From positions 1-19,964 of the forward strand of contig NZ_JAQUVZ010000060.1 in the NCBI RefSeq assembly GCF_028693135.1: a stretch of DNA of 19,964 nucleotides, read 5' to 3'. Shown in pieces: positions 1 through 19,964 of the stretch. A program made the translations under genes and the position numbers. Origin of the DNA: Methanosarcina sp. (GTDB lineage Archaea; Halobacteriota; Methanosarcinia; Methanosarcinales; Methanosarcinaceae). The notes below the pieces were generated by a model that made no database searches, had not been told where the DNA came from, and saw nothing but the letters and a program-made list of their open reading frames with translations. Every line of letters begins with the position of its first letter. Positions within the stretch are counted from its first letter, which is position 1.

Positions 1-122
1 ACTATTTGTCCACTGGCAAATGGGAATTTTTCCTGGGGCTGGATAATGGGAGCCGGATGAGCTGAGAGGTTCACGTCCGGTTCTGAGAGGGCCTGGGGGT
101 GAAATTCCCCTGGGCTACTCAC
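1..122 (+). mobile_element. 3' terminus of a group II intron (domain V 50-83, domain VI ~85-122, branch-point A117); the rest of the intron lies upstream of the window
   Basis: 50-83 GAGCCGGATGAGCTGAGAGGTTCACGTCCGGTTC is a 34-nt match to the group II domain V consensus (GAGCCGUAUG..GAAA-type loop..CACGUACGGUUC). It includes the AGC triad and a compensatory G56:C77 pair. 87-120 folds as GAGGGCCTGGGGG / CCCCTGGGCT-A-CTC, a 13-bp helix with one bulged A (117), followed by AC. This is the classic domain VI plus AY 3' end. Confidence 0.8.
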
Positions 123-545
123 CTTGTAGTCCTTTCAAAGGAATGGATCGATCCTGACAGGGTTGGGGCTATTCTGGCTGATCTGGGCCTTGAATTGAAC
201 AAAGAAAAGACTTATGTCGGAACTGCTGGGAACGGGTTTGAGTTCGTGGGCTTCTATTTTCAGGAAATTGTGGAGGAAAACGGGGCAGGGAGTATTATAA
301 AGATTATACCTACCGAGGGGTCTATTGAGAAGATAATAGAGAGTATCGAGAGCATAGAAAGCGCAATATGTATAGAAAACGCCCGCTTTGACAATGGATA
401 TCAAGCTCAGGCTCTGGATAATGTAATTAAAAATATCTATAGAGTTGTTAACCCCTGGGTAAACTACTACAAACACACGGAATACGCTGCTGGGCTTGAA
501 AGAATTGAGCAGAACTTCAATAAAAAGATTAAAGAATTTATTTAA
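123..545 (+). CDS. Group-II-intron-like reverse transcriptase, 3' exon only (RT motifs 6-7 and thumb/X-like region); 5' exon is outside the window
   Basis: Translation LVVLSKE..LADLGLELNKEKTYVG..GFEFVGFYF matches the (YADD)fvvl..GLxLNxEKT..GFxFLGF pattern. NPWVNYYKH resembles the thumb GWxNYY motif. The frame opens exactly at the predicted 3' splice site. No domain V/VI follows the stop at 545, and cas6 starts 74 nt downstream. The ORF-track start at 99 lies inside intron domain VI and is not credible. Confidence 0.65.
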   Translation, partial: LVVLSKEWIDPDRVGAILADLGLELNKEKTYVGTAGNGFEFVGFYFQEIVEENGAGSIIKIIPTEGSIEKIIESIESIESAICIENARFDNGYQAQALDNVIKNIYRVVNPWVNYYKHTEYAAGLERIEQNFNKKIKEFI

Positions 546-618
546 ATATATATTCTGATTATAATTATATAGACAACTTATTCGATTAATATCATAAGCT
601 ATTTATCTTATCCCAAAT

Positions 619-1374
619 ATGAACAAAATTGAAAAATGTATTTGTAAAAAATTCCAGATAGATTTTATGAATTCTGAAAACATTAAACTCAAAACCCTTG
701 AAATGACTTTCGAAGGAACAGAAGAATTCAGGGGAGATGCAAATCAGATCCGTGGTTTCTTTGCGTCAAAATTCAATGAATATGACCAGCTCCACAACCA
801 TAACACTGACAGGTTTTACTATCGTTACCCTCTCGTGCAGTACAAAGTTCTTGACAGGATGCCTCTCATAGTCGGTGTAAATGAAGGAGCAGAAATCTTG
901 AAAGGTTTATTTGACAAATTTGATACGGTCACCCTTCCTCACGAAGACTTTGAAATCACTGAAAGGTCTATCAGGATTAAAAAACAGGACTTTGGCCTTA
1001 CAAAAGGCATCTTTTTCTACGAATTCCTGACACCCTGGCTTGCTCTCAACAAAGAAAACGAAGAAAAATTCCTTGAGACCAGAAACCCTGAAGATCAAAA
1101 GGAAATCCTCAGGAGGACTCTGATAGGAAACCTGCTTTCCATGTCAAAGACCTTTGGGTACACTGTTCCTGATACAATAAAATGCGATGTTGATGTGGAG
1201 ATTTGCTGTTCAAAATACAAAACTATGGATTTTACTTCTTTTACAGGCGTTTTTATGGTTAATTTTTTGATCCCAGATTTTATGGGAGTGGGGAAGGGAG
1301 TTGCTAAGGGGTTTGGGACTGTGAGGAAAATAAAAGAAAATAGAAGGAAATCTGAATCATTCCAATTTCACTAA
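619..1374 (+). CDS. cas6: Cas6-family RAMP endoribonuclease (crRNA processing)
   Basis: The RYPLVQYK motif is typical of Cas6 N-terminal domains. The C-terminal glycine-rich loop is GVGKGVAKGFGTV. Size is ~250 aa and the gene sits immediately upstream of the type III effector genes. Confidence 0.7.
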   Translation: MNKIEKCICKKFQIDFMNSENIKLKTLEMTFEGTEEFRGDANQIRGFFASKFNEYDQLHNHNTDRFYYRYPLVQYKVLDRMPLIVGVNEGAEILKGLFDKFDTVTLPHEDFEITERSIRIKKQDFGLTKGIFFYEFLTPWLALNKENEEKFLETRNPEDQKEILRRTLIGNLLSMSKTFGYTVPDTIKCDVDVEICCSKYKTMDFTSFTGVFMVNFLIPDFMGVGKGVAKGFGTVRKIKENRRKSESFQFH

Positions 1375-1407: not shown

Positions 1408-2532
1408 ATGGAGCCATTTATGATAGAACCTGAGCCCATTATAATCGAAACTCTTACTCCAATATGGACAGGTGGAGTAAATGGGAAATCTACTGCAATT
1501 AAAGAAACAGGCATTATCGGAAGCATGCGTTGGTGGTATGAGGCAATAGTAAGAGGAATAGGGGGATATGCTTGCGATCCGATCAATACAATAAGTGAAC
1601 AACGATGCACATTGGACGGAAAGGAAAAAACAGAAGACGAAAGAAATAAAAAAATGTGTCCGGTATGTTATCTTTTTGGGTGTGGAGGATGGAAACGGAG
1701 ATTTCGATTAGAAATAGTGGATTCTGGTGCAAAAGAGACTTTTCATTTAGCTACACTTGATAGTGGAGCAGGAAACTACTGGTGGTTATCAACAATTTTC
1801 GAAAAAAACCTTAATGAAAACCTTTCCTTTGGAAAATTCACTTTTAAAATTTATCTCATTGGAAGAGATAATCAATCAGAAATAATTAATCAAATCAAAT
1901 CTTTGCTCTCCATAATGTCTCATGTTGGTGCGATTGGTGCCAAAAATCAATATGGTTTTGGTCAGTTTGAAATGGAAGATAGGATGGATTTTCAAAACGC
2001 TCTGAATGAGATAAATAACTTTTCTAATAAGGATGAATTCAAAAAAGAGGCAAATAAACCAGACTGGTACTCTTTATCAAATTTTTGGTGTTATGAGTTT
2101 AAAATTCCTGTGAAAAACCAGTTAATCCAAAGATTTCAGAAATCGAACATCATTGGGAATAAATCTTTGTCTACGAGTTATCTGCCGGTATCTTTCGATA
2201 TAAGGTATAAACTTCCAAACCACAATAAAGGTTCAGGATTGAGACAAGCATATTACGTTCATTGTAATGGAGATAAGAAACAAGTTCGTAAAATATTTGG
2301 CACACTCCCTAAGAGCGAAAAAAAAGAAGGTGGAATTGGAAGTCGAATTTTTGTAAGTCATCTATTTAGAGAGATGTCAGAAGAGGATTATTATTTTTTA
2401 CGTGTTTGGGGTTTCACTAAAAAAGACGTGGGTGACCTTGTCAGTACGGAGATTAAAAAAATGTTTTCTCTTAAAGAGGTTCCAAAAATGAAATACGAAG
2501 AGGAGATCAATAATTTTTTAGGGGGTGCCTAA
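1408..2532 (+). CDS. cmr1: Type III RAMP protein, Cmr1-like (Cas7 group)
   Basis: N-terminal RAMP signature TPIWTGG..IIGSMRWWYEAIVRG. CPVCYLFGCGGWKRRF. G-rich loop GAIGAKNQYGFGQFE. First effector gene after cas6. The stop abuts the next start (2532/2533). Confidence 0.65.
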   Translation: MEPFMIEPEPIIIETLTPIWTGGVNGKSTAIKETGIIGSMRWWYEAIVRGIGGYACDPINTISEQRCTLDGKEKTEDERNKKMCPVCYLFGCGGWKRRFRLEIVDSGAKETFHLATLDSGAGNYWWLSTIFEKNLNENLSFGKFTFKIYLIGRDNQSEIINQIKSLLSIMSHVGAIGAKNQYGFGQFEMEDRMDFQNALNEINNFSNKDEFKKEANKPDWYSLSNFWCYEFKIPVKNQLIQRFQKSNIIGNKSLSTSYLPVSFDIRYKLPNHNKGSGLRQAYYVHCNGDKKQVRKIFGTLPKSEKKEGGIGSRIFVSHLFREMSEEDYYFLRVWGFTKKDVGDLVSTEIKKMFSLKEVPKMKYEEEINNFLGGA

Positions 2533-3822
2533 ATGAACACTGATTGGGGTTCAGTTCTTCATCAACAGGAAAAAAACTCTATAAATGATTCAGAGATAAT
2601 TGTTAAGGAAATCGATCAGGCAAGAAAGGAAGAAAAAGAAGAATTACAAAAAAAGTTAGAGATCAAACTTAAGGATCTAATTTTGCCCAACGAACATCTG
2701 GCCTATCATTACATGGTTACCATTAATCAAAAACTGTCTGATAATTTCCGAACAGCATGGCAGAGACAGAACTTGAAAGTCAATTTAGAAGAAGTTATAG
2801 AAAACTGGGGACTTACAAAATACATTAAAGACAATTTCTTGTATCCGAAGGTAAATCTTTCTACACTACCCAGTTATTCCTTTGTTCTCAAATTTATGTT
2901 TACACTTAAAAAGCCTTATATGTCTCTTGATGAAAACGATTTTCACATTATTGATAATCCCCTGAGAAAGGATAAAGTTATAAACCTCCCATTTGTAGCG
3001 CCTTCTTCTTGGAAAGGAAGTCTCAGGAACTCACTCTGGCAACTTAAATACGACCCTGAAAACGACTTGATAAGACGTATTTTTGGAAACGAGAAATCTC
3101 CCTCTGAAGAAATAGATCTGAGAAGAGGAAGATTGTATTTCTTCCCTACCTTTTTTACCAAAAAATCATTGGAAATAATTAATCCTCATGACCGAGAGCG
3201 TAGAGTTGGGACAGTGCCGATTCTAATGGAAAGCGTTCCACAAGATACAACGGGATTTTTCACACTTCTATATGTTCCTTTTGACTTGATTGGATGTGAT
3301 GAAAACAACATTAAAAAACAGGTTTCTGAAGATCTAGAGTTGATCTCAAAAGGAGTAAAATTGATGTTTACTTATTATGGTTTTGGAGCCAAAACATCAA
3401 GTGGATACGGGACAGTTTATGAAAATGTTGAAGAGGGTACTGTCACTTTAAGAACTAAAGAAATAGAAGTTTCCGTCAAAGATACTGAGAAAGTAAAGCC
3501 TCCAGAAGACGGTTATATTAAATATCTTAATGAAGATGGCAGTGTCAAGGGAGAATTAAAAGGATCTGGAAAATATGGACTTCTAAGTGATAAAGAGTAT
3601 TATAAAATAAAAAACCAGCTTGAAGGAAGTAAAAACGAATATAGAGGTTTCAGACAATGGTATGGGTTAAATGGAGAAAAGTGGCAAAAACATTTAAACT
3701 CTCTACAGTTTCCAAAACCTGAATGGCCAATTAGGAACTTTGAAAATTTCTCAGAATTAATCGAGATCTCCAAAAATATTGCTACCTCTTTAGAATCTTC
3801 GGGGGCTCATAATGAGTGCTGA
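2533..3822 (+). CDS. cmr6: Type III RAMP protein, Cmr6-like (Cas7 group) with N- and C-terminal extensions
   Basis: LPFVAPSSWKGSLRNSL, RRIFGNE..GRLYFFPTFF and the G-rich loop YYGFGAKTSSGYGTV are RAMP/Cmr6-type motifs. Overlaps the cas10 start by 11 nt. Confidence 0.6.
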   Translation: MNTDWGSVLHQQEKNSINDSEIIVKEIDQARKEEKEELQKKLEIKLKDLILPNEHLAYHYMVTINQKLSDNFRTAWQRQNLKVNLEEVIENWGLTKYIKDNFLYPKVNLSTLPSYSFVLKFMFTLKKPYMSLDENDFHIIDNPLRKDKVINLPFVAPSSWKGSLRNSLWQLKYDPENDLIRRIFGNEKSPSEEIDLRRGRLYFFPTFFTKKSLEIINPHDRERRVGTVPILMESVPQDTTGFFTLLYVPFDLIGCDENNIKKQVSEDLELISKGVKLMFTYYGFGAKTSSGYGTVYENVEEGTVTLRTKEIEVSVKDTEKVKPPEDGYIKYLNEDGSVKGELKGSGKYGLLSDKEYYKIKNQLEGSKNEYRGFRQWYGLNGEKWQKHLNSLQFPKPEWPIRNFENFSELIEISKNIATSLESSGAHNEC

Positions 3823-6574
3823 TCTCAAAATCCTTGCTGAGAATAGAGTAAATCTATTCTTAGCTGAGATTGCTGCTTGGTTGCATGATATGGGAAAATG
3901 CAGTGATAAATTTATAATCGGAAGTTCTAGGGACAAACCATCAGATTTGAAGTATTATGATATAAAAAAAGATTATTTATCAAATTTTGATGAAAGTAAT
4001 AATGAAATTAAATCTCTTTTTGAGAAAAGATATGTTGACTTTTCTAAAGTAAATTTCATCAATGAGAAAGTTACCTTAAATGATCTTATTGTAAAAGGTC
4101 TTCCGAGGACTAATAAAGAAAAAGAGATAGATAAATTTCCTTGGTTGGTAAGAACATTAGGACGTTGTCATGGTGCAGCACATATTGAAAAAGAAACTAC
4201 AGATAAAGTGTATAAACAATCTAAAGATTGCACAATGAAAAGTAATCCTTTTGGATTTGAAAAAAAGATAGATAATCTTACACTGAAATTAACAAATCTT
4301 CCGTATAGCGAAATGGAAAATCGGTCTTTTTTTGTTAAGTCGTTAGTTGAATCTTTTAATTATGCATTAGGCGATACCAGAAGGCCTACAAATGAGGTCA
4401 CACTTACTGATTGGTCAGGCATAGTTGCTGCATTGTATAAATCCACTTTAGCTGGTGCATTACTCCTTGGGGAAAAAATAGATCCAGTTGAACTAAAGTG
4501 GAGGTTTTTATCAATAAGGTTTAATTCAGAACAAATATGGGGAAATGCTCAAAGCGTACCTGTATTAACTACAAAAAAAGAACTTTTAACAGAAGGTTTG
4601 GATCGAGTAAAAATTCTTCTTGAAGAAACTTGTCCATTAGGAAACGAAATATACCGAGATGAAAATAATAGTTTGTTCGTTGTACCAGACATCCCCGATT
4701 TACTGGACAAAATATATGAAAAAGATAAATCGCTAAAACAATTAATAGCAAATGAGTTTGGATTTGAAGGCGAAGTCGTTGTCACTACAGAAATTGATAC
4801 TGAAACCTGGTGGGGACAAAAACCAGATAGAAATGATAATTCCCAAGAAAACGAAATCCCTCCTATAGCAAAGATACTTTCTAATGAAAAGCCTCACTCT
4901 ACAGCAGATGCTAATTCCATTGAGAAATTCTGGAAAGATTCTTTCAATAGAGGAATTTGCACAATTTCCTGGTTACGTCCGCAGGGACCCACTTCAAAGG
5001 GATTTAACAGGAAAGCCTCAGATTGCTGGGTCGAGAGGGTAACGGGGAGAGCGCGTGAATGGTATAATAACCTTAATACCACAATATGGATTGATGAAGT
5101 TGCTGATACAAATAACAGAATTTGTTTGCTAACTGGAAAACTAGACCTCTTAGAATGGCTAAAACCAGATGGGTATATTTCTACGTTAAAGGTAGCTGAA
5201 GCACAAAATGAAGTCGTTACAAAAAACCCATCTTTTGCTCGTATGCATCGAGTCTGGAAAACAACTAAAGAATTCTGGGAAGATGTAGAATCTGAACTGA
5301 AGGGGAAAGTAGGCCCAGTTGACAGTAGGTTAAAGATTACTGGAAAATTCAAACCTGAAAACGCAAATATTCGGCTCACTAGATGCAATGCCTACAAAGC
5401 AATGTTGGATAGAATCGGTTTTAGCATTTTTTATGGGGAAAACAATGAATATCTCATAATCGATAATCTCAAAGAACTAGCAAATAAATTTGGTTTTAAT
5501 CCTGAAAAATGCGCTGATAAAAGTCCTACAGAATATCTTAAAGAATATCTGTCCAATAAAAAAGTTAACATCTATGATTCTGAGGGACAAAACCGACTAA
5601 ACCCCATCGGCAACTTGATAATATTAAATATCGAAGACGAAAATACCCCTTATGTTCCTGCAATTCCCATAATGGCTGAACCAAGTGTATTCATGGCTAT
5701 AGTTCCAGCAGATAAAGCTCTTGAGATATCCAGACTAATAAAAATAAAATACGAAAAAGAAATGGGGAAAGTAAGGAATCGTTTGCCTTTAAGTCTTGGG
5801 ATGGTATTTGCTAAGTCTCGCACTCCGTTAGCGGCTTTAATGGATGCAGGACGGAAGATGTTGCGCAAATCGAATAAAGAGAGATCAGTTAAAGAGGATA
5901 AATGGATCTTGAAAGAAAATCCAATTGAAAACGATAAATTGATTACTCTCAAATTTAATAACGGGATTAAATGGGAAGTTCTTTCAAAAATGGGAGATGA
6001 CATAACTCCTGATATATGGTATCCCTTTTTTTATGTTGACGGAGATCTTCAGGACAGTTCTGACACTTTTATACACTCTTTTAAGAATTCTGAGGGATGG
6101 CTGGTTCATATTAATGAATTAAAAGAAGGAGATTCAGTAAAAATTTTACCTTCTAAATTCGATTTTGAATTTTTGGATTCGGCTTCCCGCAGATTTGAAA
6201 TTTGTTATAATGAAAATGGAAATCGGAAGGAAAGCCTGAAAGCTCTAAGACCATACCTGCTAGAAGAACTTGATAGTTTCGATGGTTTATGGGATATATG
6301 CTCCAAAAACCTCTCAAACACTCAGATGAACAATATTATTACTCTTATTGAGAGAAAAAGGGATGAATGGGCTGTCGAAGAGGATAAAACTATTTTCGAA
6401 ACTTTTGTTCGTGATGTCCTTTACAATGCAAACTGGAACAATGGAAGAAAACCAGATACTACAGACTTGGATAAATTAGAAGATGCGGCTAAGTCTGGGA
6501 AATTAAGGGATATTCTGGAGTTACACATGAACATTTTAAAGCTTAGAGCGAAGGAAGTTTCGGGAGGAATTTAA
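3812..6574 (+). CDS. cas10: Cas10 large subunit, HD domain present, cyclase GGDD motif absent (III-C-like)
   Basis: 920 aa. N-terminal AAWLHDMGK (H25 D26), then GRCHGAAH and LGDTRRP, as in Cas10 HD domains. MAEPSVFMAIVPADKALE..LSLGMVFAKSRTPLAALMDAGRKML aligns to the yaGGDDfxxiG..SaGiaxxxxxxPlxxxxxxAexxL palm-2 pattern but carries AEPS (5675-5686) instead of GGDD. No GGDD or GGDE occurs anywhere in the ORF. Confidence 0.75.
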   Translation: MSADLKILAENRVNLFLAEIAAWLHDMGKCSDKFIIGSSRDKPSDLKYYDIKKDYLSNFDESNNEIKSLFEKRYVDFSKVNFINEKVTLNDLIVKGLPRTNKEKEIDKFPWLVRTLGRCHGAAHIEKETTDKVYKQSKDCTMKSNPFGFEKKIDNLTLKLTNLPYSEMENRSFFVKSLVESFNYALGDTRRPTNEVTLTDWSGIVAALYKSTLAGALLLGEKIDPVELKWRFLSIRFNSEQIWGNAQSVPVLTTKKELLTEGLDRVKILLEETCPLGNEIYRDENNSLFVVPDIPDLLDKIYEKDKSLKQLIANEFGFEGEVVVTTEIDTETWWGQKPDRNDNSQENEIPPIAKILSNEKPHSTADANSIEKFWKDSFNRGICTISWLRPQGPTSKGFNRKASDCWVERVTGRAREWYNNLNTTIWIDEVADTNNRICLLTGKLDLLEWLKPDGYISTLKVAEAQNEVVTKNPSFARMHRVWKTTKEFWEDVESELKGKVGPVDSRLKITGKFKPENANIRLTRCNAYKAMLDRIGFSIFYGENNEYLIIDNLKELANKFGFNPEKCADKSPTEYLKEYLSNKKVNIYDSEGQNRLNPIGNLIILNIEDENTPYVPAIPIMAEPSVFMAIVPADKALEISRLIKIKYEKEMGKVRNRLPLSLGMVFAKSRTPLAALMDAGRKMLRKSNKERSVKEDKWILKENPIENDKLITLKFNNGIKWEVLSKMGDDITPDIWYPFFYVDGDLQDSSDTFIHSFKNSEGWLVHINELKEGDSVKILPSKFDFEFLDSASRRFEICYNENGNRKESLKALRPYLLEELDSFDGLWDICSKNLSNTQMNNIITLIERKRDEWAVEEDKTIFETFVRDVLYNANWNNGRKPDTTDLDKLEDAAKSGKLRDILELHMNILKLRAKEVSGGI

Positions 6575-7537
6575 ATGAACGGATCAAACGGACTTTATAC
6601 TCAACAACGCTATCTATTCATGGCGCTGGACCCTATTCATATAGGTACTGGACAATCCCAACTTGGAAGGGTTGATAACACGATAGTTAGAGAGCCTGGA
6701 ACAAATCTCCCCAAAATTCCAGGGACGAGTTTAATGGGAGCAGCACGTCAATATGCCTCAATGAAATATGGGAAACTAGAAGCAGCTGGCCTGCATAAAA
6801 AATTAAAAGGAAAAAACCATGAAAATTGTCCAATAATCTATACATTCGGTACATATACAGACACCGAAGGGGGCCAGCAAGGTAAAATTAGCATCAGTGA
6901 CGCACAAATTTTGCTATTTCCAGTAAATTCTATTGCAGGACCCTTATGGGTCAGTACAAAAGAGACCCTCGAAGCTGCAGGATTCTCTTTAGAAAATGAT
7001 GTTGAGTTTTCCGACGAAAGCATGTTTACTTCTACAAATTGGGGTAAAGAAACTTTAAATCTTGGGTGGCTCTCACTGAAGGCGATTCCCGGGTTAAATG
7101 TAGTCCCTCCAGATGTTATTAAAGGAAACAATGAATGGAATTCTATAGCTAACCGACTTTCAATTGTATCTTCCAAATTATTTTCTCAAATCGTTAATAG
7201 TAATCTTGAAGTTCGTACTTCTGTTGCCATAAATCCCGAAACTGGAACAGCTGAGGATAAAGCTTTGTTTACTTATGAAGCTATCCCGAGAGCAACCTGG
7301 TTATTTTTTGATGTAGTACAGGATGATTATAAAAATGAGTTTCCACCAACTGAAAAACAGTACAAGGACAAAACCGACAATATAGGTGATTCACTTGGGG
7401 AAACTTGGAACTCACCCATTGATGTTTTGAACGCGGGTTTTCATTTGATAGAGTATCTAGGTATCGGGGGAATGGTTACCAGAGGATTTGGAAGAATGAA
7501 AAATATATGTGGCTGGGAGGTTGAAAATGAATCTTGA
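6575..7537 (+). CDS. cmr4: Type III backbone RAMP, Cmr4-like (Cas7)
   Basis: ALDPIHIGTGQSQLGRVDNTIVREPGTNLPKIPGTSLMGAARQ matches the Cmr4/Csm3 N-terminal motif, including the catalytic-position Asp. C-terminal G-rich loop GIGGMVTRGFGRM. The start directly follows the cas10 stop. Confidence 0.75.
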   Translation: MNGSNGLYTQQRYLFMALDPIHIGTGQSQLGRVDNTIVREPGTNLPKIPGTSLMGAARQYASMKYGKLEAAGLHKKLKGKNHENCPIIYTFGTYTDTEGGQQGKISISDAQILLFPVNSIAGPLWVSTKETLEAAGFSLENDVEFSDESMFTSTNWGKETLNLGWLSLKAIPGLNVVPPDVIKGNNEWNSIANRLSIVSSKLFSQIVNSNLEVRTSVAINPETGTAEDKALFTYEAIPRATWLFFDVVQDDYKNEFPPTEKQYKDKTDNIGDSLGETWNSPIDVLNAGFHLIEYLGIGGMVTRGFGRMKNICGWEVENES

Positions 7538-7710
7538 TCTCGAGGCTGCACGATCCTCTCAAGCACTCATGAAAGATACAATTAATCAACAAAGCAAGAG
7601 TGTAGAAAATCTCGTTAAAATGAATCTTGATCTCGAGGCTGCACGATCCTCTCAAGCACTCATGAAAGATACAATTAATCAACAAAGCAAGAGTGTAGAA
7701 AATCTCGTTA
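7524..7710 (+). repeat. Perfect 93-bp direct tandem duplication (2 copies plus 1 nt) covering the cas11 start codon and first 30 codons
   Basis: 7524-7616 and 7617-7709 read identically: AAAATGAATCTTGATCTCGAGGCTGCACGATCCTCTCAAGCACTCATGAAAGATACAATTAATCAACAAAGCAAGAGTGTAGAAAATCTCGTT. Confidence 0.95.
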
Positions 7711-7997
7711 CAAAGACTTTAGGTGTTTTACAAGAAAACGGGGTTTATGCTTGTATGCTATTTCTTTATTCGCGCAGTAATTCTGAAAAAGAAATTGCTA
7801 AATGTATAAGAAGTAGACTCCTGGAAATGACTGTATTTGTGGGAAAAAAATCACCAGATGGTGATAATTCAGAAGAAATCTTAGAATTCTTTACAAATAA
7901 TATTTGTAATGACATTGATACGCTTTTCTTAACTAAACAACTTTGGGAGCAGACATTAATTTACGCCCGATATGGAGCAAAGGCCAGGGAGGACTAA
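7527..7997 (+). CDS. cmr5: Small subunit Cas11/Cmr5-like, carrying an N-terminal 31-aa exact duplication
   Basis: A ~150-aa helical ORF between cmr4 and the cas5-like gene. TLGVLQENGVYACMLFLYSRS resembles the Cmr5 xxIxxNGLxxxxxFL motif. ATG 7527 is preceded by GGAGG (7515-7519). I prefer it over the track's GTG at 7509. Confidence 0.55.
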   Translation: MNLDLEAARSSQALMKDTINQQSKSVENLVKMNLDLEAARSSQALMKDTINQQSKSVENLVTKTLGVLQENGVYACMLFLYSRSNSEKEIAKCIRSRLLEMTVFVGKKSPDGDNSEEILEFFTNNICNDIDTLFLTKQLWEQTLIYARYGAKARED

Positions 7998-7998
7998 A

Positions 7999-8814
7999 AT
8001 GGCATGGACCTTCTATCGCATAAGTTTACGTCTTCTTTCTCCAGTTCATATAGGATGGAAAAAAACAGATAACTTGCAGCAGACACGGCCTTATGTTCTT
8101 GCCAAAACAATGTGGGGTGCATTGACTGCAAGAATAGCTAGAGACTATGGAAACTTTGACTATGAAAAGATTGGAAATGAAGTCGCTGAAAATTTAAGAT
8201 TCAGTTATTTTTATCCTACAATAATACCTAACAAAATTGATATTTTTCCATGGGAAAATATTGATGACTTTTCCTGGAAGTATTTGAATAGTTCCCAAAA
8301 TACCGCCCTGAATCAAAAAACAGCAGAAGAAGGTTCACTCCACGAGACTGAATATATCTCCCCGAAAACACGTAATAATAAGTCTGTGTATCTATTAGGT
8401 TATCTTTTTGAAAAAGAAGGGAGTGACTTAAAATGGCAAGAGTCATTAAAAAAAGTTCAGCTGGGAGGAGAACGTGGATATGGATGGGGAAAAGTGGAAA
8501 TGGGAAAAGTGGAAATAGAGGAAATATCTAAACTCCATGACGAATTTTTTAATGGGTATACTGTAGATTTAAGTAATGAGAATCCGATTATAAATGTTCT
8601 CGAAGAAAATAAATACGTACTAGCGCATACTCTTGCAAACAACTTGAATTTAAATGGTTTAATAGAACCTTTTGTTGGCAGAGAAACATCCAAAAATAAA
8701 TATTTTGGGGGGAAATATTCAAATGCTGAGATTTGTTGGATGCCTGGAGGCTTTGTAAATAAAAACGAAAAATTTGAAGTTCTACCTACAGGGTTATGGA
8801 AAAGTATGCATTGA
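7999..8814 (+). CDS. cmr3: Cas5-group RAMP (Cmr3/Csx10-like)
   Basis: RLLSPVHIGW..YVLAKTMWGALTARIA is a RAMP N-terminal motif. G-rich loop QLGGERGYGWGKVEM. Last gene of the effector operon. ATG 7999 follows GGGAGG (7987-7992) and the cas11 stop at 7995-7997. The track's earlier start at 7972 overlaps cas11. Confidence 0.55.
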   Translation: MAWTFYRISLRLLSPVHIGWKKTDNLQQTRPYVLAKTMWGALTARIARDYGNFDYEKIGNEVAENLRFSYFYPTIIPNKIDIFPWENIDDFSWKYLNSSQNTALNQKTAEEGSLHETEYISPKTRNNKSVYLLGYLFEKEGSDLKWQESLKKVQLGGERGYGWGKVEMGKVEIEEISKLHDEFFNGYTVDLSNENPIINVLEENKYVLAHTLANNLNLNGLIEPFVGRETSKNKYFGGKYSNAEICWMPGGFVNKNEKFEVLPTGLWKSMH

Positions 8815-10001: not shown

Positions 10002-10481
10002 ATGACCATCGAAACCGAAACTCCGGAATGTTGTCCTCGATTTGACCCCGTCCCCTGGGATGGAAAAGTCTTTGAATGGAACAATAAAAAGTTTATCAAG
10101 GATTCAGTTACCACGCAGCATTACATGCCTCTAAACTTTGGGGAGGTAATAATGAGGATGAACGAAAAAGTCGCCAGGGCTGGCGCGGAAGTGCCTGACT
10201 GGCTCTGTTTGTCGGACCATACCTCTGAAAGTAATATGGACCTCTACCTGGCTGTTGACAGAGAAGTGGATGGGGCTGAAAACGTAACCATGAGCGGGAA
10301 GTTCTTGACCAAAGTGTATGAAGGGGATTTTGAAAACACGGAAGGATGGTGCGGGGACATTGAAGGCTATGCAAAAAGCAAAGGGCTCGAAATCAAGGAA
10401 TGGTATATGTGGTACACTACCTGTCCCGCCTGTGCCGAAAAATACGGGAAAAATTACGTTGTTATCGTGGCCGAAGTTTAA
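10002..10481 (+). CDS. Conserved hypothetical Cys-rich protein (CCPxFDP..WD N-terminus, YTTCPxCAxKYGKNYVV C-terminus)
   Basis: 159-aa ORF with GGGAGAA 6-7 nt upstream of the ATG. From memory, its terminal motifs recur in small uncharacterised proteins of methanogens and anaerobic bacteria. Function unknown. Confidence 0.6.
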   Translation: MTIETETPECCPRFDPVPWDGKVFEWNNKKFIKDSVTTQHYMPLNFGEVIMRMNEKVARAGAEVPDWLCLSDHTSESNMDLYLAVDREVDGAENVTMSGKFLTKVYEGDFENTEGWCGDIEGYAKSKGLEIKEWYMWYTTCPACAEKYGKNYVVIVAEV

Positions 10482-11682: not shown

Positions 11683-13089
11683 TTACTTCTTTTTCTCCCG
11701 TCCTCTCCCCACTTTTTTCTCAGTTTCCTCTCCTTTTGGTTCTCTCCTTGTCCATACACTTCTCTCAGTTCTCTCTCCTCTTTGCTCCGTTCCCTGACCC
11801 CAACTCTTCTCAGTCGTCTCTTCTTTTGGTATTCTCCTTGTCCATTCGCTCTTTTTAGGCCCCTCTACTCTCTGTTCTCTTCCCTGAACCCGAGTTTTCT
11901 TCATTATCTCGCTTGTTGGCTCCTTCCTTGTCCATACGCTCCTCCTGACTTCCGGCTTTTCCTCTTCTCTTTCCTCTTCATCTTCATCCAGGTCGTATCC
12001 GAGTTTTGAGCTTAAGGAATTTCTGGCTTTTCGGGCTTCGGCATAGTCCGGATTGAGCCTGAGGGCTCTTTCAATGGTTCTGAGGGCTTCTTCGTCTTTA
12101 TCCAGACCTGCGAGTGCCATGCCTTTGCAGTACCAGGCGTCAGCAAAGTCGGGCTTTATTAAGATAGCTTGACTGCAGGGCTCAAGCGCTTTTTTATATC
12201 TGCCGAGCTTGAGGTGGACCATTGCTTTTCCGATCCAGATCTTTGCATTGTCCGGGTTTATTTTGAGGGCGGCATCATAGGCTATTAGGGATTCCACATG
12301 CCTGTCCAGGCTGGAGAGAGCAAAGGCTTTGCCTTCCCAGGTCCGGGGGAGGTCCGGGTTTATTTTGAGAGCAGCATCGTAAGCTATTATGGCTGCTTCG
12401 TATTCGCCAAGGTCAACGAGGACTGAGCCTTTTGCGTTCCATGCACCCGCGAGTTTGGGGTTGGCAGCAAGGGCTTTTTCAGAGGCTGCAAGGGCTTTTT
12501 TGTGCTGCCCGAGCCTGCAAAGGACTGAGGTTTTAAGGTTCCAGGTCTTGTCGCTGTTAGGCTTAATTTCAAGCAGCCTGTCAAAAGCCTGCAGGGCATC
12601 TTCATCCCTGTTGAGCTGAAGGAGCACGAAACCTTTTTCGTAGAGGTAGGCAGGATTCGAAGGTTCGATTTCAAGAGCTTTTTCAAAGGCTTTCAGGGAA
12701 TCACTGTACATCCTGTACCTTAGAAACACTGCGGCTTTGCCTGCCCAGGCGGCTGCATCATCAGGGTTTTTCTGAAGGGCTTTATCATAAAGCGCAAGTG
12801 CTTTACTCCGGCGTTCAGAGACTGTTTCACCGGCATTGTCGGCCCTGCCTCCACCTTTCAGGGGGGTTCTGCCTGTCTTGCCTTTCTTGCCAGTCTTACA
12901 TGTTTTGCCTGCTCTATCTGGTCTACATGTTTTGCCTGCTCTGCCTGGCTTACCTGTTCTGCCTGGCTTACCTGTCCTGTCTGGCTTACCTGTTCTGTCT
13001 GGCTTACCTGTTCTGTCTGGCCTGCCTGTCTTGCCTGTTCTGTCTGGCTTATCTGCCTTGCCTGTATTTTTTTTAGAATCATTTGCCAT
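11683..13089 (-). CDS. TPR-repeat protein with repetitive basic N-terminal tail (GKPDRT-type hexapeptides) and charged repetitive C-terminal tail
   Basis: The central ~270 aa contain about eight 34-aa TPR-like units (e.g. AWAGKAAVFLRYRMYSDSLKAFEKALEIEPSNP, AWNAKGSVLVDLGEYEAAIIAYDAALKINPDLP). The N-terminus is (GK[PT]xR[TA])n. The C-terminus has three SVWTRKEP/SEWTRRIP/SVWTRREP-containing repeats. Confidence 0.85.
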   Translation of the reverse strand: MANDSKKNTGKADKPDRTGKTGRPDRTGKPDRTGKPDRTGKPGRTGKPGRAGKTCRPDRAGKTCKTGKKGKTGRTPLKGGGRADNAGETVSERRSKALALYDKALQKNPDDAAAWAGKAAVFLRYRMYSDSLKAFEKALEIEPSNPAYLYEKGFVLLQLNRDEDALQAFDRLLEIKPNSDKTWNLKTSVLCRLGQHKKALAASEKALAANPKLAGAWNAKGSVLVDLGEYEAAIIAYDAALKINPDLPRTWEGKAFALSSLDRHVESLIAYDAALKINPDNAKIWIGKAMVHLKLGRYKKALEPCSQAILIKPDFADAWYCKGMALAGLDKDEEALRTIERALRLNPDYAEARKARNSLSSKLGYDLDEDEEEREEEKPEVRRSVWTRKEPTSEIMKKTRVQGREQRVEGPKKSEWTRRIPKEETTEKSWGQGTEQRGERTERSVWTRREPKGEETEKKVGRGREKKK

Positions 13090-14121: not shown

Positions 14122-15711
14122 CTTACCTCAGCAGGAGACCCCTTCCTCGACATTTCCGGCTTGCCGGAAATGGCAGGTAGGGGAGGAATGCGTCATCTGT
14201 ACCATCTGAACTAATGTTGTACTCCTCGCACTCAGTCTCCTGCATTTTTTCTTAACATTAACACTATCTGAAATTTTGTTTCCGAATATATCTGAGATTG
14301 AAAAATACCCGGATGACCGTTTGCCACGAATGAACCCGATCCCGTTTTCCGTTTTTACAATATCAAATTTCCTGAGCCCAAACAGCTTTCCGGTAGGTAT
14401 TTTCTTCTCTGATCTCTTCCCTCTCCGCTGCTGATAATCTCCCGCAGGAACGTTTCTTTTTAGAAAAACCGAATCTTCTACCTCTACATTCTGATCGTCC
14501 CTGCAACAGATAGCAACAGCATCAAAGTAATGTGTTTTTAACAACTTCAAGACCTGCTCTCTCCTGTACTTTGTTTCGTACCCGAAAGTCTCTGCAAAAC
14601 TCCAGCCGGATTTCCGGATTTGGGATTTGAGGATCCCGATTTCAGTTGCATGTTTTGTTTTTGACTTTTTCCCTGAAAGCTTGAATTCTCCATTGTGCAG
14701 GGCTTTGTGACAGGTTTCACAAAGCGTAATCAGGTTTTCCGGTGTATCTGTCCCCTTCTGTGACCTGAAAACAATGTGATGGCAATGTAGCCGGAAATCC
14801 TTTGACTTTCCCCTGCATTGCTGGCATGTGTAGCCGTCCCGATCCAGAACGTAAGCTTTGACATTGTAGAAGCCTTTAAGGTCCCCTTCCTGATACCCAA
14901 CCCCGGAAACCTCCGGATTTGTTATTTTGTGAATATCAAAGGAAGCAAGCTCTACCTTCCACCCGGTTACAGGAAGCAGGGATTCCAAAAACCTCTTTTC
15001 CCGGAAATGAGACTCAAGTTTGCTTCGGATAGAAGGAGCTAATCTCCCTTCTTTCCTTGAATTTCCCCGGTTATCAAATCTTGCAGGTCTATACCTTGTT
15101 TTTCTACCTCTTCTGTTTCTCCGGTACATCTTCCGTTGTTCCATCTTTTTCAAAACGTTTTCTCTAAGGTAGATTTCGGACTGATACAACACTTTTCCGT
15201 TAGCAATGGCTGCACAGCCCACTACCTTAGAGCCGGTATCCATCCCTGCAGTTACAGGTTGAGTATACCCACTGCTTCCGAAAAGTAACTTGATGGTGAA
15301 TGGAGTATTTCGGACCACTTTTGCCTTGCCTGCTTGCAGTAGCTTTCTGGCTTTTGAAGGTTTACAGGGCATAAGTGGTTTTTTGTTTTGATTGATTACG
15401 AAAACTAACATATAGTTTTCCTCCGAAGAGTTATGCGTATCTGAATTGTGGAGTCAATTCCGGAATCCGTCTTCCTCTCGATCTGATATGGAAAGGTTTA
15501 ACGATGCAAGCACTGTCCCTACCTCTCAGGACTGTTTAACCGGCATCCTTAGAGCCTTAAACTGAGGCGGCATTCAAGGGTAACTATTTCTTTCCTATCG
15601 TTTACCGATTTTCTATTGCTCCTTATCGGTGATCTGGTCAACCAGGGCTTGTTAGACAAGCCCCTTCCTCAAAAACCTGAGCCGTTAGGAAGGTTTTAGG
15701 GAGGGGTAATT
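14122..15711 (-). mobile_element. IS200/IS605-superfamily non-autonomous element encoding IscB plus omega-RNA (no tnpA), ~1590 bp, boundaries +/-1 nt
   Basis: Boundaries are inferred from the in-frame rejoining of the two DUF2284 halves. Sub-terminal hairpins lie at both ends: CATTTCCGGC-TT-GCCGGAAATG (14151-14172) and GGGCTTGT-TAG-ACAAGCCC (15645-15663). TTCAT (14117-14121) abuts the 14122 end. Confidence 0.7.
14128..15411 (-). CDS. iscB: IscB (OMEGA RNA-guided nuclease; RuvC split by an HNH insertion, PLMP N-terminal domain)
   Basis: KKPLMPCKPSKARKLL is the PLMP motif. GMDTGSK is RuvC-I. The Arg-rich bridge helix is YRRNRRGRKTRYRPARF. The HNH region is CQQC..HCHHIVFRSQKGTDTPENLITLCETCHKALH. 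THYFDAVAI is RuvC-III. The C-terminal region FDIVKTENGIGFIRGKRSSGYFSISD is TID-like. 427 aa. Confidence 0.85.
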   Translation of the reverse strand: MLVFVINQNKKPLMPCKPSKARKLLQAGKAKVVRNTPFTIKLLFGSSGYTQPVTAGMDTGSKVVGCAAIANGKVLYQSEIYLRENVLKKMEQRKMYRRNRRGRKTRYRPARFDNRGNSRKEGRLAPSIRSKLESHFREKRFLESLLPVTGWKVELASFDIHKITNPEVSGVGYQEGDLKGFYNVKAYVLDRDGYTCQQCRGKSKDFRLHCHHIVFRSQKGTDTPENLITLCETCHKALHNGEFKLSGKKSKTKHATEIGILKSQIRKSGWSFAETFGYETKYRREQVLKLLKTHYFDAVAICCRDDQNVEVEDSVFLKRNVPAGDYQQRRGKRSEKKIPTGKLFGLRKFDIVKTENGIGFIRGKRSSGYFSISDIFGNKISDSVNVKKKCRRLSARSTTLVQMVQMTHSSPTCHFRQAGNVEEGVSC

Positions 15712-15727
15712 GACATTAATTCCAACA
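15412..15727 (-). ncRNA. Candidate IscB omega-RNA (scaffold ~15412-15711 inside the element, putative 5' guide from flanking DNA 15712-15727)
   Basis: A ~300-nt non-coding gap lies directly 5' of iscB, the canonical omega-RNA position. It is rich in helices (minus strand): CCTTCC..GGAAGG, GGGCTTGT-cta-ACAAGCCC, ACCGAT..ATCGGT, long-range AACGAT..ATCGTT, CCTCAGTTTAA..TTAAAC..CTGAGAGG, and CTC-TTCG-GAG just before the GGAGG RBS. Confidence 0.5.
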
Positions 15728-18710: not shown

Positions 18711-19964
18711 TTTTTATCTCCCGAAGCGGGAAGACTCCTTCCTCGGACAATCCGGTAGAACCGGATTGGACAGGTGGGAGATGAGAGCGTCAACTTCCCC
18801 ACAATCCGAAGATAATAATTTCGTATATCTCCATATAGTTACAAAGAGTATATTATAAAGATGCTTCGAGGTAACAGATACCGAATTTACCCTAATAAGG
18901 AGCAAAAAGCTCTTATGGAAAAACACTTCGGTAGCTGTCGTTTTGTCTATAATAAACTCCTTGAAATCAAATCGTTAATGTATAAAAAATTCAGAATAAG
19001 TCTCTCGGAGTTTGACCTTAATAATCACCTCTTAGTTTTGAAAGAAGTGTATCCCTGGTTGAAAGAAGTTAATGCAGGAGCATTGCAACAAGCAAGTAGA
19101 AATCTGAATAAAGCTTTTACAAACTTCTTTAATTTTGGATTTGGGTATCCTCAAAAGAAAAAGAAAAAAGATCACCATTTTTCCTTTCAGATTCCTCAAC
19201 ACTATAGTCTTGATACATCTATTTCCAAAGTTTTGTTGCCTAAGTTTGGTTGGATTAAGGTTAAGATGCATAGGGAAATTAGCAAAGGAAGTTTGAAAAC
19301 TATAACTATATCCAGAACACCAACAGGAAAATACTACATAAGTTTTCTAACTAATGATGGAGAAAAACTTCCCGAAAAACAAGAATTTTCTCATGCTACC
19401 TTGATTGGAATAGATGTAGGAGTTACGACTTTCGCTACTCTTTCTACCGGAGAAAAAATTGATAACCCAAAATTCCTGAAAAACTCTCTTGAAAGATTGA
19501 AATGTTTGCAAAGAAGAGTTTCTAAGAAAGTTAAAGGTTCGAAAAACCGGAGAAAGGCAGTCTATAAACTTACGAAAATCCACGAAAAAATAAGTAATCA
19601 AAGGCATGATTTCCAGCATAAAGTTTCAAATCGGTTAATCAGCGAAAACCAAGCAATAGCCGTTGAAACTCTCAATATTAAAGGATTAAAGAAAAACCAC
19701 AAATTAGCTCAGGTTATCAGTGATTCAGCATGGTATTCTTTCGTACTGAAATTAACGTACAAAGCTGAATGGGTAGGAAAAACTATACTGAAAATAGGCA
19801 TGTTTGAACCTTCCTCTAAAATCTGTAATGTTTGTGGTTATAAACTTAAAGAATTAAGTTTAGATATTAGAGAGTGGCAATGTCCTGATTGCAAAAATAC
19901 GCATGATAGAGACATTAATGCCGCTATCAATATTAAGAAAATTGCTGTAGGGACTACAGTTTGA
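18711..19964 (+). mobile_element. IS200/IS605-superfamily element encoding TnpB (left end and tnpB visible; right end and omega-RNA guide lie beyond the window)
   Basis: The sub-terminal hairpin AATCCGGT-AGA-ACCGGATT (18749-18767) lies ~95 nt upstream of tnpB. TTCAT (18706-18710) and TTTAT (18713-18717) sit just to the left. The block 18718-18790 is homologous to 14122-14195. Confidence 0.65.
18861..19964 (+). CDS. tnpB: TnpB (IS1341/OrfB-type RNA-guided RuvC nuclease)
   Basis: The N-terminus YRIYPNKEQKALMEKHFGSCRFVYNKLL is the OrfB_IS605 signature. The RuvC triad is GIDVGV / AVETLNIKGL / HDRDINAAINI. The zinc ribbon is CNVCGY..CPDC. 367 aa, with the stop at the window end. Confidence 0.9.
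   Translation: MLRGNRYRIYPNKEQKALMEKHFGSCRFVYNKLLEIKSLMYKKFRISLSEFDLNNHLLVLKEVYPWLKEVNAGALQQASRNLNKAFTNFFNFGFGYPQKKKKKDHHFSFQIPQHYSLDTSISKVLLPKFGWIKVKMHREISKGSLKTITISRTPTGKYYISFLTNDGEKLPEKQEFSHATLIGIDVGVTTFATLSTGEKIDNPKFLKNSLERLKCLQRRVSKKVKGSKNRRKAVYKLTKIHEKISNQRHDFQHKVSNRLISENQAIAVETLNIKGLKKNHKLAQVISDSAWYSFVLKLTYKAEWVGKTILKIGMFEPSSKICNVCGYKLKELSLDIREWQCPDCKNTHDRDINAAINIKKIAVGTTV

What the first reader, a model, noticed from the sequence alone, without database searches (positions are those of the whole stretch)
1..545. A group II intron sits in the YADD box of a reverse transcriptase gene that directly precedes cas6 and a type III operon
- Seen in the sequence: 50-83 is a near-consensus group II domain V, and 85-122 is a domain VI helix with a single bulged A117 and an ..AC terminus.
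- The RT reading frame becomes interpretable only from 123 (LVVLSKE..GLELNKEKT..GFEFVGFYF), which is exactly what follows YADD in group-II-type RTs.
- The two in-frame TGAs (63-65, 84-86) and the odd 'WATH' where YADD should be are therefore intron RNA structure, not decay of the coding sequence.
- Established knowledge: Methanosarcina group II introns are known to home into RT ORFs of related introns, and RTs of group II origin are known partners of type III CRISPR-Cas adaptation modules.
- Inference: the host here does not look like an intron ORF. No DV/DVI follows its stop, and cas6 starts 74 nt later in the same AT-rich composition.
- A mobile intron therefore appears to have invaded a CRISPR-linked RT at the catalytic motif. 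RT activity, and any RNA-spacer acquisition, would then depend on splicing.
- I do not know of a description of this specific arrangement.
Basis: partly seen in the sequence, partly recalled or inferred. Interest (0 to 1): 0.75.

Follow-up and report, generated by a model that had tools for sequence, protein, structure and literature searches.

The report
Group II intron splitting a CRISPR-linked RT
The window opens inside a mobile group II intron that has inserted right after the catalytic FADD codons of the reverse-transcriptase gene Methanosarcina keeps beside its cas6b/type III CRISPR operon, which is a neat but predictable hit by an intron lineage that specialises in RT genes.

Summary

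- **Intron:** Window 48-123 is a full-length Rfam group II domain V/VI match (58.3 bits, E 2e-9). Positions 2-46 encode the C-terminus and stop of the intron's own RT (LFVHWQMGIFPGAG*).
- **Splice site:** The 3' splice site is after C123, not C122. The exon starts at T124 in codon phase 1, and splicing would restore FADD-F-VVLSKEW as in seven intron-less alleles.
- **Host gene:** The exon (124-545) is 68-71% identical, end to end, to the C-termini of full-length Methanosarcina CRISPR-linked RTs (Toro clade 1, Silas branch 11). In intact loci these lie between a CRISPR array and cas6b plus type III genes and have no intron RNA around them. The host is therefore not an intron ORF.
- **Intron lineage:** It is probably RmInt1-like class D, with a 415-aa IEP lacking an endonuclease domain, and occurs in M. 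lacustris and Methanosarcinaceae MAGs. Its closest copies all sit right after YADD in RT genes, and its EBS1/EBS2 pair with the CRISPR-RT site.
- **Unresolved:** The 5' exon cannot be seen because the contig ends in the intron. In M. mazei, WWM596 and a metagenome this RT is already a 5'-truncated remnant.

"RT activity depends on splicing" is possible but unproven. I file this as a new member of a known kind, of moderate interest.

The parts
2..46 (+). 3' end of the intron's own ORF (intron-encoded RT/maturase): LFVHWQMGIFPGAG followed by TAA at 44-46
   Evidence: Frame 2 aligns with the IEP C-termini of related introns (L028 LFVHWEMGIHPAVG*, L067 LFVHWKMGILPGAG*). It is identical to the last 14 residues of the intact 415-aa IEP in L140.
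48..84 (+). Group II intron domain V (helix 50-83; AGC triad 51-53; GAGA loop 64-67)
   Evidence: Rfam RF00029 at 58.3 bits, E 2e-9. The identical 34-mer occurs in more than 119 bacterial intron copies.
85..123 (+). Domain VI (85-120) with unpaired branch-point A117, plus the 3' terminal ACC; 3' splice site between C123 and T124
   Evidence: Rfam alignment and centroid fold. Relatives all end CTACTYACC. A117 lies 7 nt from the splice site.
124..545 (+). 3' exon of the CRISPR-linked RT (clade 1): last two bases of the Phe codon, then VVLSKEW...KEFI, stop 543-545. Covers RT motifs 6-7 and the thumb/X domain.
   Evidence: 68-71% identical end to end to the C-termini of P0219, P0197 and P0211. Weak GIIM Pfam hit. 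dN/dS 0.12-0.22 against orthologues. DNA homology to intron-less alleles begins at 124.
546..666 (+). AT-rich spacer between the RT stop and cas6b, with blocks conserved across loci (e.g. TTCGATTAATATCATAAGCTATTTATCTTAT); probably holds cas6b's own promoter (inferred)
   Evidence: Alignment of window, L005, L006, L007 and L129.
619..1374 (+). cas6b (ORF from the first ATG at 619; the orthologous start is probably ATG 667)
   Evidence: Pfam Cas6b_N 6.5e-30 and Cas6b_C 3.1e-37; orthologue alignment.
1408..8814 (+). Type III (Cmr-type) effector genes: Cmr1-like 1408-2532, RAMP 2533-3822, Csx11 (Cas10-family large subunit) 3812-6574, Cmr4-like 6575-7537, small ORF 7509-7997, RAMP 7972-8814
   Evidence: Pfam RAMPs and Cas10 palm2. 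NCBIfam Cmr1 7e-38, Csx11 2.8e-276, Cmr4 2.6e-36. Same gene order in L005 and L007.

Best explanation
**What it is.** The window begins in the last 123 nt of an ORF-containing group II intron. Complete close relatives are about 1.86 kb and encode a 415-aa RT/maturase with no endonuclease domain, most similar to RmInt1-type class D/IIB3 introns. The intron is inserted in the Methanosarcina CRISPR-linked RT gene (RT-CRISPR clade 1), which normally sits between a CRISPR array and cas6b plus a type III operon.

**How it got there.** The insertion splits the codon after FADD (...GAT GAT T | intron | TT GTA GTC...). This intron lineage retrohomes by EBS-IBS base pairing into the YADD-coding sequence of RT genes. 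The CRISPR RT descends from a group II intron RT and still carries a near-canonical copy of that site.

**Consequences.**
- Shown: the RT ORF is split at its catalytic motif.
- Inferred: an intact RT could be made only from spliced mRNA. The cas6b and type III genes keep their own conserved upstream region and should be unaffected.
- Most likely: the RT is knocked down or already non-functional, about 0.65-0.7, against about 0.3 for an intact RT that depends on splicing.
For: **Intron identity**
- Rfam DV/DVI match.
- IEP C-terminus at 2-46, identical to that of the intact IEP in L140.
- The tail is 97-98% identical to L140 and L134, and 91-93% to Peptococcaceae and Syntrophomonas copies.

**Target specificity**
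- The closest copies all have 3' exons that read as RT sequence straight after YADD.
- Complete copies L028, L119 and L140 have 5' exons ending RYADD+T/A followed by GTGCG/GTACG.
- EBS1 AGUCGU(U) and EBS2 GCGUAG in L028, L119 and L140 pair with those exons.
- They would also pair with the Methanosarcina site GAUGAUU (7/7 positions, 3 of them G-U) and UUUUGC (5/6).

**Residence in Methanosarcina**
- IEP clusters at >=90% identity include M. lacustris Z-7289, a Methanosarcinaceae MAG and M. acetivorans.

**Host identity**
- establish sequence membership.
- establish synteny.
- Intact loci lack intron RNA.
- The family is described by Toro 2017/2018 and Silas 2017.

**Class**
- The IEP is 55% identical to a multi-copy S. 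meliloti pSymB intron ORF and about 30% to other plasmid introns.
- RmInt1 and RmInt2 are class D, lack the En domain, and RmInt1 splices poorly in vivo (PMC5894124).
Against: - The intron's domains I-IV, its 5' end and the 5' exon are not in the window, and I could not retrieve them.
- It is therefore unknown whether the intron is complete, whether its EBS match this site, and whether an RT N-terminus precedes it.
- I found no second genome with the same insertion.
- The intron would end in CC rather than the canonical AY.
- The class D assignment rests on similarity, not on a phylogeny.
Confidence: 0.85

Rival explanations
1. The intron landed in, or now sits in, a dead RT remnant. The RT 5' half is already missing or decayed, as in M. 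mazei and WWM596, so the insertion has no functional consequence and no splicing-dependent RT exists. This is a sub-case of the best explanation that differs only in the state of the host gene.
For: - RT fragments next to cas6b are cut at three different 5' points by the end of a CRISPR array in L005 (M. mazei), L006 (WWM596) and L007.
- L006, the window's closest relative (dS 0.27), also has an internal stop, and dN/dS against it is raised to 0.43.
- Retrohoming needs only about 15 nt around FADD, and all the truncated alleles keep that sequence.
Against: - The window's 140-codon exon is open to the native stop.
- It shows dN/dS of 0.12-0.22 against intact orthologues.
- Full-length RT-cas6b loci are common in M. 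siciliae, M. horonobensis, M. vacuolata and many metagenome proteins.
Confidence: 0.45
2. Twintron: the host RT is itself the ORF of an outer group II intron, as in the nested Methanosarcina arrays, and its proximity to cas6b is coincidental.
For: - The same intron lineage is nested in other introns' ORFs in L140, L134, L028 and L119.
- A weak GIIM (maturase) domain hit in the exon.
Against: - No DV/DVI or DI-DIV match after the RT stop, even at E<=1.
- No intron RNA around the full-length orthologues.
- The exon is 68-71% identical to cas6b-linked RTs and 21-35% to intron IEPs.
- The RT-cas6b-type III order is conserved in seven loci.
Confidence: 0.02
3. Assembly chimera: an intron tail from a co-occurring syntrophic bacterium was joined to a Methanosarcina RT fragment during metagenome assembly.
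For: - The window comes from a MAG contig that ends within the intron.
- The IEP family is abundant in Firmicutes from the same kinds of habitat.
- No second example of this junction was found.
Against: - The join is base-precise at the lineage's own homing site and restores the reading frame. A k-mer chimera would need sequence shared across the junction.
- Closely related IEPs (>=90% identity clusters of the L140 copy) are found in Methanosarcina genomes, including the isolate M. lacustris Z-7289.
Confidence: 0.04

Closest known systems
Methanosarcina group II introns that home into the RT ORFs of other group II introns (Dai & Zimmerly 2003, RNA 9:14; summarised in PMC4424553 and PMC2882425)
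   Same: - Same genus.
- Same behaviour: site-specific retrohoming into conserved RT-coding sequence.
- L140 and L134 show this very lineage nested after YADD in other introns' ORFs, and L140's host ORF is also hit by a second intron at QGG|ISP.
   Different: - Here the target is a domesticated, CRISPR-linked RT gene with no intron RNA around it, not another intron's ORF.
- I could not read the original paper (not held), so I cannot say whether this lineage or this site is among those it lists.
RT-CRISPR clade 1 (Toro et al. 2017/2018, PMC5541045, PMC6013744), equivalent to branch 11 (Silas et al. 2017, PMC5513706): Methanosarcinaceae RT next to cas6 and type III genes
   Same: - Sequence family, position directly upstream of cas6b, Cmr/Csm-type neighbours and lack of intron RNA structure all match.
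   Different: - The published descriptions treat the RT as an intact stand-alone gene.
- Here it is split by an intron. In several genomes I examined it is a 5'-truncated remnant abutting a CRISPR array.
RmInt1/RmInt2 of Sinorhizobium meliloti (class D, IIB3, IEP without endonuclease domain; PMC5894124)
   Same: - An IEP of about 415 aa with RT plus maturase and no En domain.
- 55% identity to a multi-copy S. meliloti pSymB intron ORF.
- Homing into conserved coding motifs of other mobile elements. More distant members of the window's DV family sit in IS3-type transposase genes.
   Different: - A different target: the RT YADD box rather than ISRm2011-2.
- Class membership is inferred from similarity only.
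- The window shows just DV, DVI and 14 residues of the IEP.
Twintrons and ORF-targeting introns of Thermosynechococcus elongatus (PMC2882425)
   Same: - Introns that proliferate by inserting at a conserved site in the RT ORF of other introns.
   Different: [quoted passage not shown]
- This lineage carries an ORF and targets the catalytic YADD codons.

Membership tests
Group II intron | Domain V with AGC catalytic triad, 2-nt bulge and tetraloop | tested here: met
   Rfam RF00029 full-length match at 58.3 bits against a gathering score of 40; helix 50-83 in the fold.
Group II intron | Domain VI with an unpaired branch-point adenosine 7-8 nt from the 3' splice site | tested here: met
   A117 is unpaired in the fold and lies 7 nt before the 123|124 junction, which is fixed.
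Group II intron | 5' GUGYG end and domains I-IV with EBS1/EBS2 complementary to the 5' exon | not testable with these tools
   These lie upstream of window position 1. In the 97%-identical copy L140 they are present (GTGCG, Rfam D1D4-2 at 124 bits, EBS1 AGUCGUU, EBS2 GCGUAG).
Group II intron | Intron-encoded RT/maturase ORF in domain IV | tested here: inconclusive
   Only the last 14 codons and the stop are in the window (2-46). They are identical to the end of the intact 415-aa IEP in L140.
Bacterial class D / IIB3 introns (RmInt1-like) | IEP clusters with class D RTs, has RT plus X domains and no D/En domain | tested here: inconclusive
   The proxy IEP from L140 is 415 aa with Pfam RVT_1 and GIIM only. 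It is 55% identical to a multi-copy S. meliloti pSymB intron ORF and about 30% to other plasmid introns. No class phylogeny was built.
RT-CRISPR clade 1 (Toro) / branch 11 (Silas) | Sequence clusters with the Methanosarcinaceae CRISPR-linked RTs rather than with intron-encoded RTs | tested here: met
   68-71% identity end to end to M. horonobensis, M. siciliae and M. vacuolata RTs, against 21-35% to IEPs. Only the C-terminal 140 residues could be tested.
RT-CRISPR clade 1 (Toro) / branch 11 (Silas) | Stand-alone RT gene directly upstream of cas6 and a type III effector operon, not fused to cas1 | tested here: met
   RT stop at 545, cas6b at 619/667-1374, Cmr1/Csx11/Cmr4 genes at 1408-8814. Same order in L002-L007, L129 and L130.
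RT-CRISPR clade 1 (Toro) / branch 11 (Silas) | No group II intron RNA structure belonging to the RT itself | tested here: met
   No DV/DVI after the RT stop at E<=1; none around full-length orthologues. The DV/DVI at 48-123 belongs to the inserted intron, whose own IEP ends at 46.
RT-CRISPR clade 1 (Toro) / branch 11 (Silas) | Complete RT domain (motifs 0-7) with catalytic aspartates | not testable with these tools
   Motifs 0-5 would lie in the unseen 5' exon. They are absent in the truncated alleles of M. mazei, WWM596 and L007.
Twintron (intron within an intron) | Host sequence is itself a group II intron, with RNA domains flanking the host ORF | tested here: not met
   Searches find no such domains. 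By contrast L140 and L134 do show a second DV/DVI downstream of the host ORF.
Type III CRISPR-Cas effector module (Cmr-type, III-B/C-like) | Cas10-family large subunit plus several RAMP (Cas7/Cas5-type) subunits | tested here: met
   Csx11 at 920 bits, Cmr1 at 130 bits, Cmr4 at 126 bits, and four RAMP Pfam hits. The exact subtype was not resolved.

The most novel reading that the evidence does not exclude
The RT is intact apart from the intron, and the intron splices. Production of the CRISPR-linked RT, and with it any RNA-derived spacer acquisition, would then be gated by group II intron splicing, while the intron places a second active RT (its IEP) inside the CRISPR locus. More broadly, YADD-homing introns could act as parasites that disable or replace domesticated RTs of defence systems. 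That could help explain why clade 1 RTs so often decay in Methanosarcina, and how RTs are repeatedly recruited to CRISPR loci.
Probability: 0.25. Interest if true: 0.6.

Novelty: new member of a known kind. Interest (0 to 1): 0.4.

Why it matters
- **A domesticated gene still carries its old homing site.** The CRISPR-linked RT of Methanosarcina descends from a group II intron RT. It keeps that ancestor's homing-site sequence and so remains a target for introns that specialise in RT genes.
- **If the gene is otherwise intact,** this would be the first CRISPR adaptation-associated RT whose expression depends on intron splicing.
- **If it is not intact,** it adds to evidence gathered here that this RT is often lost in Methanosarcina. 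It is truncated by array ends in M. mazei, WWM596 and a metagenome. That bears on whether clade 1 RTs function in spacer acquisition at all.
- **For annotation,** the 148-aa "hypothetical protein" (MDD3248459.1) is an artefact that fuses intron RNA to an RT exon.

Tried and rejected
- **Upstream contig.** Exact look-ups of window proteins (Cas6b, Cmr1, the 148-aa ORF, P0001) gave nothing or only a 3.7-kb Logan contig that starts inside cas6b.
- **Genome scan used up.** The loci still proved useful for target-site analysis.
- **Junction scan.** A degenerate intron-end plus RT-exon pattern found nothing in the JGI metagenomes.
- **Suspected second case.** P0002 and P0009 start at "VLSKEW". P0002's contig (L144) turned out to be an intron-less, low-coverage, frameshifted RT.
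- **5'-exon products.** I looked among hits of suitable length for proteins ending ...RFADD plus intron read-through and found none.
- **Regex for 5' junctions.** My first pattern, YADD directly followed by GTGYG, failed because one extra exon base intervenes. That failure led to the corrected splice site.
- **Dai & Zimmerly 2003** (PMC1370365) is not held in the library.
- **Considered and rejected:** the twintron and chimera readings (see rivals), and a 3' splice site at 122|123. The latter would give Leu where every intron-less allele has Phe, a non-canonical T/A+GTGCG intron start, and a branch point at -6.

Full report
**1. What is at 1-545**

Rfam's group II intron model (RF00029, domains V and VI) matches window 48-123 over its whole length. 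The score is 58.3 bits against a gathering score of 40, with E 2.2e-9 for the whole window and 2.8e-10 in a sensitive local scan.

- Domain V is 50-83.
- Domain VI is 85-120, with A117 unpaired on the 3' strand above a 3-bp basal helix (centroid fold). The 130-nt stretch folds better than all 200 shuffles (z = -3.4).

This is the conserved C-terminus of the intron-encoded protein (IEP) in related introns. It is identical to the end of an intact 415-aa IEP in metagenome contig L140. So the window starts inside an ORF-containing intron.

**2. Where the intron ends**

Five observations put it at C123, with the exon starting at T124.

1. All seven intron-less alleles of the host gene read GAT GAY TTY GTN, with T where the window has C123. 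Homology to the window starts at TTGTAGTCC, which is position 124.
2. C123 is invariant among related introns whatever they are inserted in, as expected for an intron base.
3. In three complete copies (L028, L119, L140) the 5' exon ends ...RYADD plus one extra base (T or A), followed by a canonical GTGCG or GTACG.
4. That extra base extends the EBS1-IBS1 helix in L028 and L140.
5. Rfam aligns its last model position to 123, and A117 then lies 7 nt from the splice site.

Splicing would therefore give ...GAT GAT T|TT GTA GTC = FADD-F-VVLSKEW, exactly as in the uninterrupted alleles.

**3. The host gene**

The exon 124-545 (140 codons, stop at 543-545) is 68-71% identical, end to end, to the C-termini of full-length RTs of 364-404 aa from M. 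horonobensis, M. siciliae and M. vacuolata. It is only 21-35% identical to intron-encoded RTs, including the invading intron's own IEP.

In M. siciliae and M. horonobensis the gene order is cas2-cas1 on the opposite strand, then a CRISPR array, the RT, cas6b (an unannotated 268-aa gene in M. horonobensis) and type III genes. Rfam finds no intron RNA there. In the window nothing intron-like follows the RT stop, even at E<=1.

This is the family described as RT-CRISPR clade 1 (Toro 2017/2018) and branch 11 (Silas 2017). It is restricted to Methanosarcinaceae, stands apart from cas1, lies next to cas6, and is thought to derive recently from a group II intron RT.

Downstream the window carries:
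- cas6b (Pfam Cas6b_N and Cas6b_C);
- a Cmr1-like RAMP;
- a further RAMP;
- a Csx11 large subunit (920 bits);
- a Cmr4-like RAMP;
- a small ORF;
- another RAMP.

The twintron reading is therefore rejected.

**4. Why the intron is there**

I compared the 123-nt tail with 119 loci that share the DV 34-mer. The closest copies are 85-93% identical over the whole tail and come from Peptococcaceae, Syntrophomonas and others. They have 3' exons that read as RT sequence straight after YADD, for example xVMGFQHRNEAED, xVITVSG and xVVLAKSKRAAKRLL. More distant tails sit in a conserved IS3-type transposase motif.

A second scan, keyed on the IEP C-terminus, found L134 (98% tail identity) and L140 (97%). 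Both are AT-rich contigs in which the intron is nested after YADD in another group II intron's ORF. In L140 that host ORF is also split by a different intron at QGG|ISP.

- EBS1 (AGUCGUU) and EBS2 (GCGUAG) in these copies pair with their 5' exons.
- They would pair with the Methanosarcina CRISPR-RT site at 7/7 positions (GAUGAUU, three of them G-U) and 5/6 positions (UUUUGC).
- The one mismatch comes from Phe (TTT) replacing Tyr (TAT).

So the insertion is what this lineage does by retrohoming. The CRISPR RT is hit because it still carries the ancestral site.

The IEP's >=90% identity clusters include M. lacustris Z-7289, a Methanosarcinaceae MAG and M. acetivorans. The intron is therefore resident in the genus. 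That fact, together with the base-precise junction, makes an assembly chimera unlikely.

The IEP is 55% identical to a multi-copy S. meliloti pSymB intron ORF and about 30% to other plasmid introns. RmInt1 and RmInt2 are class D/IIB3, lack an endonuclease domain, and RmInt1 splices poorly in vivo (PMC5894124). I treat class D as likely but not tested by phylogeny.

**5. Is the RT still a working gene?**

This cannot be settled here. The source contig is 20,342 nt against a 19,964-nt window, so it ends in the intron, probably because the intron is a repeat. No other source gave the upstream DNA.

Evidence for a working gene:
- The exon is open to its native stop.
- It shows dN/dS of 0.12-0.22 against orthologues. 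However, dS is near 1, so a recent loss of constraint would not be visible.

Evidence against:
- In M. mazei (four strains examined) a long CRISPR array runs straight into the RT at IEDKLIL.
- In WWM596 a partial repeat abuts GKYSKKGLLQGG, and the gene has an internal stop.
- In a JGI contig a repeat remnant precedes FDNQW.
- All of these lack motifs 0-3 and cannot be active polymerases, yet all keep the FADD site.
- WWM596 is the window's nearest relative (dS 0.27, dN/dS 0.43).

My estimate is about 0.3 that an intact, splicing-dependent RT exists here, and about 0.65-0.7 that the RT is knocked down or already dead. The spacer between the RT stop and cas6b contains blocks conserved across loci. 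I therefore infer that the effector operon has its own promoter and does not depend on the RT's state.

**6. Comparison with what is known, and novelty**

Both components are known. Methanosarcina introns home into RT ORFs (Dai & Zimmerly 2003, via PMC4424553 and PMC2882425), and clade 1 RTs next to cas6 and type III genes are described. None of the RT-CRISPR papers I could read mentions an intron-interrupted or array-truncated clade 1 RT. I found no second example of the interruption.

I file it as a new member of a known kind: a predictable but apparently unreported hit by an RT-targeting intron on a domesticated RT. Interest is moderate at 0.4. It would rise to about 0.6 if the gene proves intact and splicing-dependent.

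Noticed in passing
L005 9958-10020 (also L002-L004); L128 310-340; L129 and L130 RT genes: The clade 1 RT gene contains a segment (codons K-T-R-I-E/G-D) that is 14-15 nt identical to the 3' end of the neighbouring CRISPR repeat (CTAAAACAAGGATTGAAAC) in some alleles. In M. mazei the last repeat runs straight into the RT at exactly this segment. This suggests the RT 5' half was deleted by recombination between a repeat and this repeat-like stretch.
   Followed up: partly
L005 9400-10000, L006 8600-10050, L007 4800-5080: The CRISPR-linked RT is 5'-truncated at three different points by the trailer end of a CRISPR array in three Methanosarcina lineages. WWM596 also has an internal stop. The published descriptions of this RT clade that I read do not mention this.
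   Followed up: partly
window 14128-15714 (-): An IscB-type gene (427 aa, RRXRR plus HNH domains) with its HEARO/omega RNA immediately upstream (Rfam RF02033, 117.5 bits, 15469-15714).
   Followed up: no
window 18861-19964 (+): A TnpB/IS605 OrfB-type gene (HTH_OrfB_IS605, OrfB_IS605 and Cas12f1-like TNB domains) whose 367-aa ORF ends at the last base of the window.
   Followed up: no
window 619-669: The cas6b ORF starts at ATG 619, but orthologues start at the ATG equivalent to 667 and the Pfam Cas6b_N match begins at residue 23. The true start is probably 667, leaving about 121 nt of conserved AT-rich spacer after the RT stop.
   Followed up: partly
window 99-545: The public annotation of this stretch (148-aa hypothetical protein PHF18_16640, MDD3248459.1, starting MKFPWATH) is an artefact. 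Its first 8-9 codons are intron domain VI read in the RT frame.
   Followed up: yes
L140 3600-3800 (-) and 1700-1800 (-): One group II intron ORF is hit by two different introns at two conserved RT motifs (after QGG, before ISP; and after YADD). This is a nested arrangement like that reported for M. acetivorans.
   Followed up: partly
loci L080, L049, L107, L079, L100 and others: More distant introns that share the identical DV 34-mer are inserted in a conserved IS3-type transposase motif. The exon resumes (T)YIP...GWLYLAVV, again in codon phase 1.
   Followed up: no
window 10002-10481 (+) and 11683-13089 (-): A 'Bacterial hydrolase' (PF20603) gene follows the type III operon here and in L007. 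A 468-aa TPR-repeat protein lies on the opposite strand.
   Followed up: no
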